Source: Escherichia coli | Lineage (GTDB): Bacteria > Pseudomonadota > Gammaproteobacteria > Enterobacterales > Enterobacteriaceae | Reading direction: 5' to 3' (one strand) | Length of the DNA: 64,000 nucleotides | Assembly (NCBI RefSeq): GCF_003790525.1 | Contig: NZ_CP033635.1 | Shown: piece after piece, positions 41,892 to 57,749 of the stretch | How positions within the stretch are numbered: the first letter of the stretch is position 1 | Layout: each line of letters opens with the position of its first letter | Notes under the pieces: model-generated | The model's input: the letters and a program-made list of their open reading frames with translations, nothing else | What the model was told of the DNA's origin: nothing | The model's database searches: none | Position numbers and translations under genes: made by a program

Positions 41892-43317
41892 TAATGCCGA
41901 TCAGTTAAGGATCAGTTGACCGATCCAGTGGCTGTGTAAGAATCCGGAAACGCTCACTTGTTTCCGGATTTTTTTATGCACATTGGACAGGCTCTTGATC
42001 TGGTATCCCGTTACGATTCTCTGCGTAACCCACTGACTTCTCTGGGGGATTACCTCGACCCCGAACTCATCTCTCGTTGCCTTGCCGAATCAGGTACTGT
42101 AACGCTACGCAAGCGCCGTCTTCCCCTCGAAATGATGGTCTGGTGTATTGTTGGCATGGCGCTTGAGCGTAAAGAACCTCTTCACCAGATTGTGAATCGC
42201 CTGGACATCATGCTGCCGGGCAATCGCCCCTTCGTTGCCCCCAGTGCCGTTATTCAGGCCCGCCAGCGCCTGGGAAGTGAGGCTGTCCGCCGCGTGTTCA
42301 CGAAAACAGCGCAGCTCTGGCATAACGCCACGCCGCATCCGCACTGGTGCGGCCTGACCCTGCTGGCCATCGATGGTGTGTTCTGGCGCACACCGGATAC
42401 ACCAGAGAACGATGCAGCCTTCCCCCGCCAGACACATGCCGGGAACCCGGCGCTCTACCCGCAGGTCAAAATGGTCTGCCAGATGGAACTGACCAGCCAT
42501 CTGCTGACGGCTGCAGCCTTCGGCACGATGAAGAACAGCGAAAATGAGCTTGCTGAGCAACTTATAGAACAAACCGGCGATAACACTCTGACGTTAATGG
42601 ATAAAGGTTATTACTCACTGGGACTGTTAAATGCCTGGAGCCTGGCGGGAGAACACCGCCACTGGATGATACCTCTCAGAAAGGGAGCGCAATATGAAGA
42701 GATCAGAAAACTGGGTAAAGGCGATCATCTGGTGAAGCTGAAAACCAGCCCGCAGGCACGAAAAAAGTGGCCGGGACTGGGAAATGAAGTGACAGCCCGC
42801 CTGCTGACCGTGACGCGCAAAGGAAAAGTCTGCCATCTGCTGACGTCGATGACGGACGCCATGCGCTTCCCCGGAGGAGAAATGGCGGATCTGTACAGTC
42901 ATCGCTGGGAAATCGAACTGGGATACAGGGAGATAAAACAGACGATGCAACTGAGCAGGCTGACGCTGAGAAGTAAAAAACCGGAGCTTGTGGAGCAAGA
43001 GCTGTGGGGTGTCTTACTGGCTTATAATCTGGTGAGATATCAGATGATTAAAATGGCGGAATATCTGAAAGGTTACTGGCCGAATCAACTGAGTTTCTCA
43101 GAATCATGTGGAATGGTGATGAGAATGCTGATGACATTGCAGGGCGCTTCACCGGGACGTATACCGGAGCTGATGCGCGATCTTGCAAGTATGGGACAAC
43201 TTGTGAAATTACCGACAAGAAGGGAAAGGGCCTTCCCGAGAGTGGTAAAGGAGAGGCCCTGGAAATACCCCACAGCCCCGAAAAAGAGCCAGTCAGTTGC
43301 TTAACTGACTGGCATTA
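41892..43317 (+). mobile_element. Insertion sequence IS4 (1426 bp, apparently intact)
   Basis: Terminal inverted repeats taatgccgatcagttaagg (left) and gcttaactgactggcatta (right, reverse complement taatgccagtcagttaagc); single transposase ORF; 13-bp direct repeats on both sides. Confidence 0.9.
41976..43304 (+). CDS. insG: IS4 transposase
   Basis: 442-aa translation [40 protein letters not shown]... matches IS4 transposase as I recall it. Confidence 0.9.
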
Positions 43318-50264: not shown

Positions 50265-51164
50265 TCAAAGAATTAGCACTTGCTCTTCACTAGAAACTAT
50301 GGTTCTGACTTCACGCTCAAATATTGGATCCATTATCATTTTTCTATTTGTTGGAATAGTAAATTTACCGAGTACCATGACAATGCTACTCAACGGAAAT
50401 AATTTTGGAGTAACATTTCCTAATTGAATCGTAGGATATATATTAAAGCCCCCTTTTATCCTCATTGGCGAACCTTCAATGAAGTGTCGATAATTAAATT
50501 TCGCCATAGGGATTCTCGCCACATGCACTTTCATAATTACAGCAACCTGAGCTATTTTTACTTTCTGGAGGTAAGTTGACAATCGTTCTAACTGCGTTGT
50601 TTCATAGAAAAAATCAGACCACGTTACAGTACTTGTTCCAGTAACAATTTTTATGCTGTTTCTCTTGTTGGGGTGAGCTTTTCCATATTCATAGATCTCC
50701 CGTAAGCTATCCATGTTCTTCACATAAGGGGCTTTCCGACCTCTCTTGACATAAACGCGGTCTGTAGTATCAGAAGGTGGATTTGCCTGCATAGCTGCAG
50801 CTTTTCTGCTTAATTTAGAGATATCATCTTCATCGAGTATATGTATACGGAATATATTATTACCTGTGGCAAGCGCACGGCTGATATCATGACTGGAATC
50901 ACTTGCATAAATTGTATTCAATCCTGAAGTTCCATACTGGCATAATTTGTCATGCGTGAAATTTTTTTCCAGTCTAAAGAAGGCGGGGATATGCAAGGTT
51001 TTATTAAAACTCCGACGAATATGGCTTTTGACATACACCAAATGAGCAGAGCAATTTGGGTCAGGACATTTGAGTGGATAGGGATTAACACTATAATTAA
51101 AAGTATTTACATTTACTAAAATCTGATTGTTATCAATAGCCTGAGTTATACGAATACCACTCAT
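50265..51164 (-). CDS. AT-rich cargo (moron) protein at the P2 Z/fun position between G and FI; candidate phage-exclusion protein
   Basis: 299-aa ORF with markedly lower GC than flanking tail genes; occupies the slot where P2 carries the T5-exclusion gene Z/fun; no family recognised. Confidence 0.6.
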   Translation of the reverse strand: MSGIRITQAIDNNQILVNVNTFNYSVNPYPLKCPDPNCSAHLVYVKSHIRRSFNKTLHIPAFFRLEKNFTHDKLCQYGTSGLNTIYASDSSHDISRALATGNNIFRIHILDEDDISKLSRKAAAMQANPPSDTTDRVYVKRGRKAPYVKNMDSLREIYEYGKAHPNKRNSIKIVTGTSTVTWSDFFYETTQLERLSTYLQKVKIAQVAVIMKVHVARIPMAKFNYRHFIEGSPMRIKGGFNIYPTIQLGNVTPKLFPLSSIVMVLGKFTIPTNRKMIMDPIFEREVRTIVSSEEQVLIL

Positions 51165-55376: not shown

Positions 55377-55724
55377 TCAACTCACAGGGATGGTTAACGA
55401 AAGTGGCTGGCCGGTGTCGTTGTGCTGACCGGTTAACGTGACCGTCATTCGCCCGTCAAAACTGCGCGCCGTGGTGACGGATGACAGGGTGACGCGGGGT
55501 TCCCATTTCAGCACTGCCATGTAACAGGCGACCTTAATCTGCAACTCAAGCGCCGGGGTCTGCGGCTGGTCAATCATTGACGCCAGCAACGAGCCGTAAT
55601 CACGACGCATCACCCGTGAGCCGACGGGGGTACGCAGGATATCGCCGATACTCTGGCTGATATGCTCAAGGTCAGTGACAGTCAGGCCATCACTGCGATT
55701 CATTCCGAGATAACGCGCAGTCAT
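55377..55724 (-). CDS. W: Baseplate protein (gpW)
   Basis: 115 aa; position between V and J. Confidence 0.85.
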   Translation of the reverse strand: MTARYLGMNRSDGLTVTDLEHISQSIGDILRTPVGSRVMRRDYGSLLASMIDQPQTPALELQIKVACYMAVLKWEPRVTLSSVTTARSFDGRMTVTLTGQHNDTGQPLSLTIPVS

Positions 55725-56356
55725 AGAGGTCCCCCGGTTGTGCCGCCGCTGTCGCCGGGGTGTTTATGGGTATGCAGTACCTTACCGTTTGATGAGAGCT
55801 CACCGCCGGTGTGTTCAATGTTGCCGCGCATCGTCCCGCCCTTCTGCACTTCCAGCGTGCCGGTAATCAGCCTGTTGGTGCAGACCACCTCCGGTGTGTC
55901 CAGGGTGATGCGGGTTGATGCTTTCACCATGACCACCGGCACCGTGGCAGTAACAGAATCAGAAGCCGTCACGCTGGCCGTTTTAACTCCGCTTACCGTG
56001 AGCGCGCTGGTTTCAGGTTCATACTCAATCACCGCCCCGTCAGGGAAACGGATATGCAGGGCATCCGCCGACGCAGACGGCGCGGGGTTATCGCCGGAAT
56101 AAATCCCCGGCAGAACGAACGCCGTGTCGAGTTCACCACCCACGGCCAGAATCAGCACCTGTTCCCCCACGGAAGGTGCCCACCATGTGCGCGAACGCCC
56201 GGCGCGATGGGTCAGCCACTGAAGCCAGTCGGTGCACATGCCGCCGGTCTGCACACGGCAGCGACCGGCATTAAGGTCGGTTTCGACGATAATGCCGGTG
56301 CGGATCATGTTGCGCAGTGCGCGCGCGAGTTCCTGAATATTTGCGAGAGTGTTCAT
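55721..56356 (-). CDS. V: Baseplate spike/assembly protein (gpV)
   Basis: Start trimmed to MNTLANIQELARALRNMIRTGIIVETDLNAGRCRVQTGG (CAT at 56354-56356). Confidence 0.85.
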   Translation of the reverse strand: MNTLANIQELARALRNMIRTGIIVETDLNAGRCRVQTGGMCTDWLQWLTHRAGRSRTWWAPSVGEQVLILAVGGELDTAFVLPGIYSGDNPAPSASADALHIRFPDGAVIEYEPETSALTVSGVKTASVTASDSVTATVPVVMVKASTRITLDTPEVVCTNRLITGTLEVQKGGTMRGNIEHTGGELSSNGKVLHTHKHPGDSGGTTGGPL

Positions 56357-56439
56357 GCGTGTGAGATTGCACAATATATAAAAGTTATGCTATCTGGATT
56401 CATTTGTAGAACGACCATACAACATTCGAGGAGAGCGTA

Positions 56440-57225
56440 ATGTTCAGTGATAATGTGACTAATGCGTGGTGGTTTATCTCTTTGTATCTATTTTTATTAA
56501 TAGCATTAACATTTGTTACCTTTGGTAAAAGTAATCTTATGAGGTTTATTGCACATCATTTCAATCTTGAGTATTCAGACAGAAAGTTAAAAATGCTCGA
56601 CAAAAAATGGCGCGACATTCAACTATTTAAAATAATTAACGGAATCAATGTATCAGGCATCGAAGATGTGAGAATGATACAGCAGGGGCTGATTGATGGA
56701 AAACTAAAAACATCGTATTTTTTCCTTACTCGCTTCTGGGGTGACATAACAAAACCACCACACATAATTAAAACAACAATTGTAATTCTGGCCAGTATTA
56801 TTTATATTCTCTTCGCATGTTATATACACAATGAACAATCCGCTATAGTAAGGGATGCCATAGGTATACCATATAAAAATATGATGTACTATGTTTATAG
56901 TGACAAAGTTCTTTTATCCTTCAAAAATAAAACGGTTGAATTTAATAAAACTTATAGCCTTGCCGATTGCAAGAGTCTGCAAAACGTATTTATAAAAGAC
57001 ACACTTCCCGAGATCGCCTGCAATAAGCTCTTACAGCTAAACAAGGAGGACTCCGAATGGTTAAGTCAGGAGATTAAAGATAATAACAGCCACAGAAAAA
57101 CATTATTAATAATATCCCTAACCTATTTCATTTCAGGTCTGCTTATATTCCTGTCATATACAAAATTCCTTTACGCCAATAAGAAGGTTTTAGAATACAA
57201 AGCATCAAATAAAAACCACTCATAA
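56440..57225 (+). CDS. AT-rich cargo (moron) membrane protein at the P2 orf30 position between S and V, opposite strand to the late operon
   Basis: 261 aa, about three predicted TM helices, very AT-rich, divergent from V; no family recognised. Confidence 0.6.
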   Translation: MFSDNVTNAWWFISLYLFLLIALTFVTFGKSNLMRFIAHHFNLEYSDRKLKMLDKKWRDIQLFKIINGINVSGIEDVRMIQQGLIDGKLKTSYFFLTRFWGDITKPPHIIKTTIVILASIIYILFACYIHNEQSAIVRDAIGIPYKNMMYYVYSDKVLLSFKNKTVEFNKTYSLADCKSLQNVFIKDTLPEIACNKLLQLNKEDSEWLSQEIKDNNSHRKTLLIISLTYFISGLLIFLSYTKFLYANKKVLEYKASNKNHS

Positions 57226-57236
57226 ACCTCTAAATA

Positions 57237-57261
57237 TTGAGCGACCAGCACGGCCGCTCAA
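57237..57261. terminator. Hairpin between the S/V cargo gene and S
   Basis: ttgagcg accagcacggc cgctcaa inverted repeat; weak flanking T-run. Confidence 0.35.
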
Positions 57262-57296
57262 TGCTTAATTGCGCATCAGCCTCTGCCTTGATAAAA

Positions 57297-57749
57297 CTAA
57301 CGCTCAAGGTGAGCCAGGATAATCTCTTCAATCATCTGCACATCCTCACCGGTAAAGCCGAGCAGAGGACGCGCCGGATAATCAATTTTCTTACCGTCTT
57401 TCCGGTTTTCTTCCGACAGACCGAACTGATGCACACTGGCGATTTTCGGTGACTTCCCGCCGTAAAACTCCATTGATGCCTGTTCCGGGCTGGCGCGGAT
57501 ATGCAAAAAACGACTGGTGATAAGTTTCGCAAACATTTTTCGCTTAACACGACCGGTCTTTTTTCTGGCGCTCTGCTGCTGGCGTGGCGCGTAGGGTGTG
57601 CCGTCCGGAGCTTTCTGTGCCATCACCCGACGCTGCTGACTCTGCCGCAGGCGTTTCGCCAGTTCGGCACTCAGTCGCCGACGCCCTGACGGTGACAGCG
57701 ATTCAATCAGTCCGGTCAGCCGGTCTTCAAAACGCTTAAACTCATTCAT
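57297..57749 (-). CDS. S: Tail completion protein (gpS)
   Basis: 150 aa; position after R. Confidence 0.85.
   Translation of the reverse strand: MNEFKRFEDRLTGLIESLSPSGRRRLSAELAKRLRQSQQRRVMAQKAPDGTPYAPRQQQSARKKTGRVKRKMFAKLITSRFLHIRASPEQASMEFYGGKSPKIASVHQFGLSEENRKDGKKIDYPARPLLGFTGEDVQMIEEIILAHLER

What the first reader, a model, noticed from the sequence alone, without database searches (positions are those of the whole stretch)
56440..57225. Opposite-strand AT-rich membrane-protein cargo gene at the P2 S/V (orf30) slot
A 261-aa ORF with roughly three TM helices and very low GC is inserted between tail-completion gene S and baseplate gene V, transcribed divergently from the late operon. P2 itself carries an uncharacterised, compositionally deviant orf30 here. 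A small membrane protein at a moron site is typical of abortive-infection or superinfection-exclusion factors. Its function is, to my knowledge, unassigned.
Basis: partly seen in the sequence, partly recalled or inferred. Interest (0 to 1): 0.7.

Follow-up and report, generated by a model that had tools for sequence, protein, structure and literature searches.

The report
Phage P2 orf30 membrane-protein gene
This is an allele of orf30, the long-annotated, nonessential, AT-rich gene of phage P2; it encodes a three-helix inner-membrane protein of still unknown function, belongs to a fast-evolving family confined to accessory sites of P2-like prophages, and is a reasonable but untested candidate for a prophage protection factor.

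Summary
There is a 261-aa ORF at 56440-57225 (+) with GC 0.33 against 0.54-0.60 in the flanks. It has three hydrophobic helices, lies between baseplate gene V and tail-completion gene S, and is on the opposite strand.

It is not new cargo in the orf30 slot. It is P2 orf30 itself: 84% protein identity to AAD03281.1 (annotated "nonessential"), a full-length match to phrog_2407, and 100% DNA identity to E. coli SMS-3-5.

The gene is real. No shuffle of the segment gave so long an ORF, it has a strong ribosome-binding site, and dN/dS is about 0.45. It sits in a 938-bp AT-rich segment that replaces 64 bp in empty-slot relatives. About 27% of E. coli P2-type prophages carry it.

Relatives only 20-34% identical occupy the same slot in distant P2-like prophages, or lie beside the integrase. 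They share a cytoplasmic motif and a periplasmic cysteine pair.

I found no match to any known defence, lysis or solved-structure family, and no paper assigning a function.

My best guess is a lysogen-expressed inner-membrane exclusion protein, analogous but not homologous to P22 SieA (confidence about 0.35). This is inference only.

The gene is already known and of modest interest.

The parts
56440..57225 (+). orf30 coding sequence (261 aa). Predicted inner-membrane protein with the N-terminus outside and the C-terminus inside. TM1 is about residues 9-28, followed by a cytoplasmic helical loop (29-107) carrying the motif D-x-Q-L-F-K/R-x-x-N-G-I-N-V. TM2 is about 108-130, followed by a periplasmic alpha/beta loop (131-219) with the C177/C194 pair. 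TM3 is about 220-240, followed by a Lys-rich tail.
   Evidence: ORF list; 84% identity over 261 aa to P2 Orf30; phrog_2407 match over 1-261 of 261, E 3.8e-142; hydropathy and charge counts; family alignment A1; AlphaFold model with pLDDT 84 and pTM 0.72; dN/dS 0.45.
56357..57294 (.). 938-bp AT-rich (GC 0.34) S-V intergenic segment. It carries orf30, a P2-type version of the V promoter region and a hairpin. It replaces a 64-bp segment in P2-like phages whose slot is empty.
   Evidence: In blastn of the window against phage pro483, homology stops exactly at the V start codon (56356) and resumes at 57295. Alignment A2. The same 874-bp length difference appears in dozens of Peduovirus records.
56429..56433 (+). 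Shine-Dalgarno sequence AGGAG of orf30, 6 nt upstream of the ATG.
   Evidence: Read from the sequence and located by script.
56398..56425 (-). Ogr activator binding site of the late V-operon promoter (a TGT...ACA dyad at 56405-56424), only about 15 nt from the orf30 start codon. It belongs to the neighbouring late operon but constrains where an orf30 promoter can lie.
   Evidence: Transferred by position from the AF063097 annotation 'activator binding site; activation of pV promoter'. The motif was located, and a CACAAC(A) half-site is kept in the homologous loci.
57236..57262 (.). GC-rich hairpin between the convergent orf30 and S genes. In P2 it is annotated as the putative rho-independent terminator of the O operon (- strand). 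It could also end orf30 transcripts (+ strand).
   Evidence: P2 annotation. Folding gave -15.9 kcal/mol (z -2.4) on the + strand and an 11-bp stem on the - strand.
55721..56356 (-). Gene V (baseplate spike), the left flank and first gene of the V late operon.
   Evidence: 97% identical to P2 gpV; PHROG baseplate/spike hits; RefSeq annotation.
57297..57749 (-). Gene S (tail completion), the right flank and last gene of the O late operon.
   Evidence: 99% identical to P2 gpS; phrog_26; RefSeq annotation.

Best explanation
Identity (near certain). This is the orf30 gene of a complete P2-type prophage of E. coli SMS-3-5. It is a genuine, nonessential, single-gene accessory cassette. Its product is a member of phrog_2407, a family that evolves quickly and is found only in accessory sites of P2-like prophages.

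Anatomy (predicted). The protein is an inner-membrane protein with three membrane helices. A conserved helical domain faces the cytoplasm. A small alpha/beta domain faces the periplasm and is probably held by a C177-C194 disulfide.

Function (inferred, not shown). The most likely role is a lysogenic-conversion factor made from the prophage. It would sit in the inner membrane and block a step of infection by other phages at the envelope, most plausibly delivery of the genome across the inner membrane. That would make it a superinfection-exclusion protein that works like P22 SieA without being related to it.

The confidence given (0.35) is for the functional part. The identity part is about 0.98.
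For: Identity.

Real gene under selection: none of 2000 shuffles gave so long an ORF. It has a strong SD. All 7 alleles keep an intact 786-bp frame, with median dN/dS 0.45 overall and about 0.3 in both soluble loops. 460 of 463 E. coli matches cover at least 80% of the gene.

Accessory, not needed by the phage: it is annotated as nonessential in P2. It is present at only 481 of 1809 V-gene places in E. coli and in 20 of 76 Peduovirus records, most of the rest having an empty slot.

Cargo-like behaviour: relatives 20-34% identical occupy the same V-adjacent slot on the opposite strand in distant P2-like or 186-like prophages. Others lie at the integrase-att end (+96) or between int and ogr. That end is a place where defence genes of P2 are reported (bioRxiv 10.64898/2026.02.27.708500). 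Intact copies survive in decayed prophage remnants.

Fast evolution, as expected in conflict: between genera Orf30 is 22-32% identical, against 59-84% for V and 45-65% for S. Among E. coli and Yersinia alleles dN is 6-10 times that of the flanks.

Topology: a positive-inside charge pattern and a conserved Cys pair in the loop predicted to be periplasmic.

Analogy: P22 sieA is also a 3-TM inner-membrane protein gene. It is AT-rich (GC 0.337 against 0.44-0.475), lies on the opposite strand between late structural genes, and exists as types less than 30% identical (PMC10883804).
Against: No experiment or dataset bears on expression or phenotype. No convincing sigma-70 promoter lies upstream in the P2-type allele. 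The only room for one overlaps the late V promoter and its Ogr box.

There is no homology to SieA (hhalign probability 0.2%) and none to any PADLOC model.

18 E. coli genomes carry two orf30 copies (481 places in 463 genomes). From my own knowledge of the classical literature, P2 lysogens can be superinfected by P2 to give double lysogens. Exclusion of P2-type phages themselves is therefore unlikely to be complete.

From my own knowledge, the three classical exclusion phenotypes of P2 lysogens (against lambda, T-even phages and T5) are already assigned to old, tin and fun(Z). None is left over for orf30.
Confidence: 0.35

Rival explanations
1. Abortive-infection membrane effector. Orf30 would stay inert in the inner membrane until an infection cue makes it permeabilise or depolarise the membrane. 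The cell would die before the invading phage matures, in the manner of RexB or the SLATT and 2TM effectors of CBASS-type systems.
For: It is a multi-helix membrane protein in a prophage accessory slot. UniRef names one family member (Rahnella, WP_217150542.1) 'SMODS and SLOG-associating 2TM effector domain-containing protein'. Both soluble domains are conserved and could act as a sensor and a gate.
Against: Pfam, which holds the SLATT families, and NCBIfam found no SLATT match in that very protein or in any of 25 members. The label is probably an automatic name. No sensor or nucleotide-cyclase partner gene is present, because the cassette holds a single gene between tail genes. PADLOC gave 0 hits. 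The two first helices are 80 residues apart, not a 2TM hairpin.
Confidence: 0.2
2. Lysogenic-conversion envelope factor unrelated to phage defence. Examples would be immunity or tolerance to a bacteriocin, tailocin or contact-dependent toxin, or a stress or colonisation function that benefits the host.
For: The accessory distribution, the retention in decayed prophages, the AT-rich foreign composition and the membrane location are the same as for the best explanation. Nothing ties the protein specifically to phage infection.
Against: The family was found only in P2-like elements in all 12 context look-ups (11 informative, one too short). It was not seen next to toxin or bacteriocin genes. Its fast evolution fits an antagonist that also evolves.
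Confidence: 0.2
3. Phage-cycle function during lytic growth. Examples would be modulating lysis, or protecting the producing cell or its debris from re-injection by progeny. Expression would be tied to the adjacent late V promoter region.
For: The position next to V and the Ogr box is strikingly conserved across very divergent P2-like phages. No independent sigma-70 promoter is evident in the P2-type allele. The lysis genes lie nearby.
Against: It is on the opposite strand to all late genes. The Ogr site centre is only about 30 bp from the start codon, too close for activation from -55. The gene is nonessential and missing from about 73% of P2-type prophages. Relatives also sit at the integrase end and in remnants that have lost the late genes. 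There is no PHROG lysis hit.
Confidence: 0.12
4. Non-functional ORF: a decaying or selfish AT-rich insertion with no current role.
For: It is dispensable, and no function has been found since it was annotated (literature searches). dN/dS is about 1.2 in the first 30 codons.
Against: The frame is intact in all alleles examined. dN/dS is 0.3 in both loops. Residues G68, G87, C194 and I212 are invariant across members 20% identical. The SD is strong. The fold is predicted with confidence and recurs in AFDB relatives with TM-scores of 0.7-0.8.
Confidence: 0.03

Closest known systems
Bacteriophage P2 Orf30 (AAD03281.1; PHROG phrog_2407)
   Same: It is the same gene. It has the same length (261 aa) and 84% identity without gaps. 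It has the same slot, strand, AT-richness and neighbouring terminator and Ogr box.
   Different: It differs only as an allele, by 41 substitutions concentrated in the N-terminus and TM1 and in TM2/TM3. The function of the reference protein is itself unknown.
Salmonella phage P22 SieA (superinfection exclusion, inner membrane)
   Same: Both are single genes for a 3-TM inner-membrane protein. Both are AT-rich relative to the phage and lie on the opposite strand between late structural genes. Both exist as sequence types less than 30% identical.
   Different: There is no detectable sequence relationship (hhalign probability 0.2%). SieA is 162-164 aa and lacks the two roughly 80-90-residue soluble domains. 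SieA has an annotated promoter and a proven DNA-injection block. Orf30 has neither.
Pfam DUF6216 (PF19723), uncharacterised proteobacterial membrane proteins
   Same: There are weak HMM matches to the N-terminal half (TM1, cytoplasmic loop, TM2) in 3 of 25 family members at E<=0.001 and 6 of 25 at E<=0.1. Foldseek finds 270-310-aa uncharacterised proteins of Pseudomonas, Xanthomonas and others with TM-scores of about 0.5.
   Different: The window protein itself does not match. DUF6216 has no known function, so the link adds no mechanism.
P2 accessory exclusion genes old, tin and fun(Z), and the defence hotspots of P2-like prophages
   Same: These are also AT-rich, nonessential cargo at fixed gaps between core genes of P2. 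The orf30 site is listed with the TO and Z regions as one of three horizontal-transfer sites (PMC3091744).
   Different: The recent hotspot surveys I read do not mention the S/V slot or orf30. The slot is mostly either empty or holds this one family, rather than a large rotating repertoire. R18C is an exception, with unrelated cargo.

Membership tests
P2 Orf30 / phrog_2407 | Full-length sequence match to the family profile and to the P2 reference protein | tested here: met
   phrog_2407 E 3.8e-142 over residues 1-261 of 261. BLASTP gives 84% identity, no gaps, E 4e-167.
P2 Orf30 / phrog_2407 | Location between S and V of a P2-like genome, on the strand opposite to the late genes | tested here: met
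   The same arrangement is seen in distant members.
Pfam DUF6216 (PF19723) | HMM match at or above Pfam significance | tested here: inconclusive
   The window protein has no hit at E<=10. 3 of 25 relatives match at E<=0.001, with a best value of 1.3e-05.
SLATT (SMODS and SLOG-associating 2TM effector) domain | Match to a SLATT profile (Pfam SLATT_1-6 or NCBIfam SLATT models) | tested here: not met
   There is no SLATT hit for the window protein, for the UniRef-labelled member P0048, or for 25 members scanned singly.
SLATT (SMODS and SLOG-associating 2TM effector) domain | Genomic association with SMODS, SLOG or other nucleotide-signalling genes | tested here: not met
   It is a single-gene cassette flanked by tail genes. 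No such neighbours appear in 12 context look-ups.
P22 SieA-type superinfection exclusion proteins | Sequence homology to SieA types A-C, including the cytoplasmic motif FxRYPxEAxxFNK | tested here: not met
   hhalign of family alignment A1 against P22 SieA gave probability 0.2%. The motif described in PMC10883804 is absent from A1.
P22 SieA-type superinfection exclusion proteins | Integral inner-membrane protein with about three membrane helices | tested here: inconclusive
   Predicted from hydropathy, charge bias and the AlphaFold helices. There is no localisation experiment.
P22 SieA-type superinfection exclusion proteins | Expressed from the repressed prophage and sufficient to block DNA injection by target phages | not testable with these tools
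   This needs transcript mapping and phage challenge. I found no published data.
Known anti-phage defence systems (PADLOC-DB 2.0) | Match to any defence-protein model | tested here: not met
   0 families at E<=1 for the window protein and for 10 diverse relatives.
Phage lysis proteins (holin, antiholin, spanin) | Match to a lysis-category family, or placement and orientation within the lysis cassette | tested here: not met
   The only PHROG hits are of unknown function. The gene lies outside the Y-K-lysA-lysB-lysC block and on the other strand.

The most novel reading that the evidence does not exclude
The Orf30 family (phrog_2407) is an unrecognised single-protein inner-membrane anti-phage determinant, acting by exclusion or abortive infection. 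It would be specific to the P2 lineage and maintained for a long time at the S/V gap. That gap would then be a third defence locus of P2, one that current defence catalogues (PADLOC, and by implication the hotspot surveys) miss. It is present in about 8.5% of complete E. coli genomes.
Probability: 0.45. Interest if true: 0.6.

Novelty: already known. Interest (0 to 1): 0.3.

Why it matters
P2 is the type phage of a very common prophage lineage, and its other AT-rich accessory genes (old, tin, fun) all turned out to be anti-phage factors. orf30 is the one classical P2 cargo gene still without a function, and it sits in 463 of 5426 complete E. coli genomes. This work adds three things: the gene belongs to a conserved, fast-evolving membrane-protein family; it has a defined predicted topology; and it keeps its place across genera. 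That turns "hypothetical protein" into a set of cheap, specific experiments. If it proves to be a new exclusion or abortive-infection protein, it would add a defence class that today's catalogues do not detect. If not, it is simply a known orphan gene.

Tried and rejected
- **Family libraries.** Pfam, NCBIfam and PADLOC scans of the protein and of 10-25 relatives gave nothing beyond weak DUF6216 matches.
- **Predicted structures.** Foldseek against viral structures found nothing at E<=0.001. Foldseek against AFDB50 found only uncharacterised proteins.
- **SLATT lead.** I followed up the SLATT label on one UniRef entry and it was not reproduced.
- **SieA.** I tested homology to P22 SieA and rejected it.
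- **RNA.** An Rfam scan of 56000-57700 found nothing.
- **Promoter.** A promoter scan found no candidate upstream of orf30. The sites it did find lie inside the AT-rich ORF and are expected from its composition.
- **Wider locus search.** I did not obtain a genome-wide taxonomic census.
- **Second type in E. coli.** I looked for a second divergent Orf30 type (the P0026 type) in E. coli complete genomes and found none.
- **Literature.** Searches for any functional study of orf30 found only statements of "unknown" or "nonessential".

Full report
**1. The observation**

An ATG-initiated ORF of 261 codons runs from 56440 to 57225 on the + strand. I shuffled the 940-bp segment between S and V 2000 times. 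The longest stop-free stretch averaged 71 codons and never exceeded 183, against 271 observed. An AGGAG Shine-Dalgarno sequence lies 6 nt before the ATG.

The ORF has GC 0.327. That compares with 0.604 for V, 0.541 for S and 0.514 for the window. Hydropathy gives three clear membrane-helix peaks at about residues 9-28, 108-130 and 220-240.

The flanks are V (55721-56356, -) and S (57297-57749, -). The orientation is divergent from the V operon and convergent with S.

**2. What it is**

The DNA from 56300 to 57400 is 92.7% identical to reference P2 (AF063097) and 99.6% identical to another Peduovirus P2 record. In AF063097 the matching CDS is "orf30, Orf30, nonessential". It lies between an annotated Ogr activator site for the V promoter and an annotated terminator of the O operon.

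The proteins are 84% identical over all 261 residues, without gaps. The protein also matches phrog_2407 (unknown function) end to end, with E 3.8e-142.

The ORF is 100% identical to ECSMS35_RS21845 of E. coli SMS-3-5. There it lies in a complete P2-type prophage between cpxP and fieF. So this is not a new gene occupying the orf30 slot. It is an orf30 allele.

**3. The cassette and its distribution**

I compared the window with phage pro483, whose slot is empty. Homology stops exactly at the V start codon (56356) and resumes at 57295. In between, 938 bp of GC 0.34 replace 64 bp.

This segment carries three things:
- a P2-type version of the V promoter region, with the Ogr box at 56398-56425
- orf30
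- a hairpin at 57236-57262 that can fold on either strand

The distribution is as follows:
- Of 76 Peduovirus records that match the flanks, 20 carry orf30. Nearly all the others show the same 874-bp length difference, meaning an empty slot.
- Phage R18C carries an unrelated 246-aa ORF (phrog_10503) in the late-gene orientation (PMC6823313).
- In complete E. coli genomes, orf30 occurs at 481 places in 463 of 5426 genomes. It is always chromosomal and always annotated "hypothetical protein".
- The neighbouring V gene occurs at 1809 places in 1580 genomes, so orf30 accompanies about 27% of them.

**4. It is a real gene under selection, and it evolves fast**

Seven alleles from E. coli and Yersinia phages and prophages all keep an intact 786-bp frame. 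Median pairwise dN/dS values were as follows.

| Gene or region | dN/dS |
|---|---|
| orf30 (whole) | 0.45 |
| V | 0.11 |
| S | 0.07 |
| orf30, cytoplasmic loop | 0.33 |
| orf30, periplasmic loop | 0.31 |
| orf30, N-terminus plus TM1 | about 1.2 |

Mean dN of orf30 is 6 to 10 times that of the flanks.

**5. The wider family**

- **Close relatives.** A word-seeded search of 5.8 billion proteins found only five clusters.
- **Distant relatives.** An exhaustive HMMER search of 1.84 billion representatives found 40 proteins at E<=0.001. Many are full length (250-270 aa) at 20-34% identity. All ten that I tested fall in phrog_2407.
- **Conserved residues.** In the 25-sequence alignment A1, G68, G87, C194 and I212 are invariant, and G29, Q61, D76 and K254 nearly so.
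- **Conserved motifs.** The motif D-x-Q-L-F-R/K-x-x-N-G-I/V-N-V lies in the first loop. A Cys pair (C177, C194) lies in the second loop.
- **Topology.** Charge counts (14 K/R in loop 1 and a Lys-rich C-tail) place loop 1 and the tail in the cytoplasm. The Cys-bearing loop would then be periplasmic, where a disulfide can form. This is inference.
- **Structure.** AlphaFold2 on A1 gives a confident model (pLDDT 84, pTM 0.72). It shows TM1, a four-helix cytoplasmic region, TM2, a four-stranded sheet with two short helices, and a 59-residue helix that includes TM3.

**6. Genomic context of relatives**

The long-contig relatives lie next to V on the opposite strand in divergent P2-like or 186-like prophages:
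- P0007, P0026, P0030 and P0048 (Rahnella) sit alone in the slot.
- P0033 shares the slot with a DUF4062 gene.
- P0028 sits in tandem with a paralogue, P0043, in a decayed prophage.

The other relatives lie at other accessory positions of P2-like elements:
- P0025 lies between the integrase and the chromosome junction.
- P0013 lies after an integrase remnant.
- P0037 lies between int and ogr.
- P0021 is on contigs too short to judge.

Between genera, Orf30 relatives are 22-32% identical, while V is 59-84% and S is 45-65%. Every relative is AT-rich, with GC 0.30-0.345.

The family is thus tied to the P2 lineage. It usually keeps its place and behaves as cargo. It also survives when the phage decays.

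**7. Comparison with what is known**

- PADLOC gave nothing for the protein or for ten relatives.
- NCBIfam and Pfam gave nothing for the protein.
- A few relatives weakly match DUF6216, itself uncharacterised. The one paper that mentions DUF6216 appears unrelated, judging by its title and abstract.
- One UniRef entry in the family is named as a SLATT 2TM effector. Neither Pfam nor NCBIfam reproduces this on that sequence, and there are no SMODS or SLOG neighbours. I treat it as an automatic label.
- The literature I could search describes orf30 only as unknown, nonessential, and one of three horizontal-transfer sites of P2. The recent surveys of P2 defence hotspots do not mention it.

The best functional analogue is P22 sieA. 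It encodes a 162-164-aa inner-membrane protein with three membrane helices. The gene is AT-rich (0.337 against 0.44-0.475) and lies on the opposite strand between late genes 16 and 9. It is known in three types less than 30% identical, and it blocks DNA injection. There is no sequence relationship between it and Orf30 (hhalign probability 0.2%).

**8. How it most likely works**

These points are shown:
- It is a real, selected, dispensable gene.
- It is a single-gene, AT-rich cassette.
- It belongs to a P2-lineage family.
- It evolves fast.

These points are predicted:
- It is an inner-membrane protein with the N-terminus outside and the C-terminus inside.
- It has one conserved domain on each side of the membrane.

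This point is inferred by analogy only. It would be a lysogen-expressed factor that interferes with infection by other phages at the inner membrane, most simply by blocking genome entry.

Several points weigh against that reading:
- I found no promoter. In the P2-type allele the 83 bp upstream are filled by the late V promoter and its Ogr box.
- 18 genomes hold two orf30 copies.
- From my own knowledge, P2 lysogens accept superinfecting P2, and the classical exclusion phenotypes of P2 are already assigned to old, tin and fun.

The rivals are listed with their tests in the rival-explanations section: an abortive-infection effector, a non-defence envelope function, a lytic-cycle role, and a dead gene.

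**9. Verdict**

Its function is still open. What is added here is a family-level picture and a set of testable predictions, not a discovery of a new kind of element. I score interest at 0.3. The most novel reading not excluded is a new P2-lineage inner-membrane defence class, with probability about 0.45.

Noticed in passing
window 50265-51164 (-): The Z/fun accessory slot of the same prophage, between the tail-fibre assembly gene and the tail sheath gene, holds a 299-aa AT-rich ORF (GC 0.35-0.41). RefSeq annotates it as a hypothetical protein. It matches phrog_7195 (unknown function) end to end and has no PADLOC hit. It is another uncharacterised cargo gene at a known defence hotspot.
   Followed up: partly
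window 41958-43304 (+): An IS4 family transposase gene (448-aa ORF) lies immediately outside ogr at the prophage end, between the prophage and fieF.
   Followed up: no
L003 30454-33492 (E. coli SMS-3-5, just beyond the window's right end): The old/tin (TO) hotspot of this prophage carries three genes. The first is a ParB-N-domain protein whose first ~150 residues match PADLOC PD-Lambda-5_A models (E 2.5e-24), with a longer match (residues 41-327) to PDC-M38A. The others are a 345-aa hypothetical protein with no PADLOC hit and a DNA cytosine methyltransferase.
   Followed up: partly
L019 7877-9214 (-): In one distant P2-like prophage, the S/V slot holds a 445-aa DUF4062 protein (phrog_9489, unknown function, no PADLOC hit) beside the orf30 relative. 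The slot can therefore accumulate a second cargo gene.
   Followed up: partly
L020 7001-8658 (+): Two tandem orf30-family paralogues (P0028, 256 aa, and P0043, 252 aa) sit next to V in a decayed P2-like remnant. Its J gene is truncated and abuts a chemoreceptor gene.
   Followed up: no
L031 681-1421 (+) (phage R18C, MN016939.1 9380-10120): Phage R18C fills the same S/V slot with an unrelated 246-aa ORF (phrog_10503, unknown function, no PADLOC hit). It is in the same orientation as the late genes.
   Followed up: partly
L013 2166-3405: In a 186-like prophage that carries a distant orf30 relative, the Z/fun slot holds a cupin-like gene and a divergent PAS-LuxR (GerE) regulator gene.
   Followed up: no
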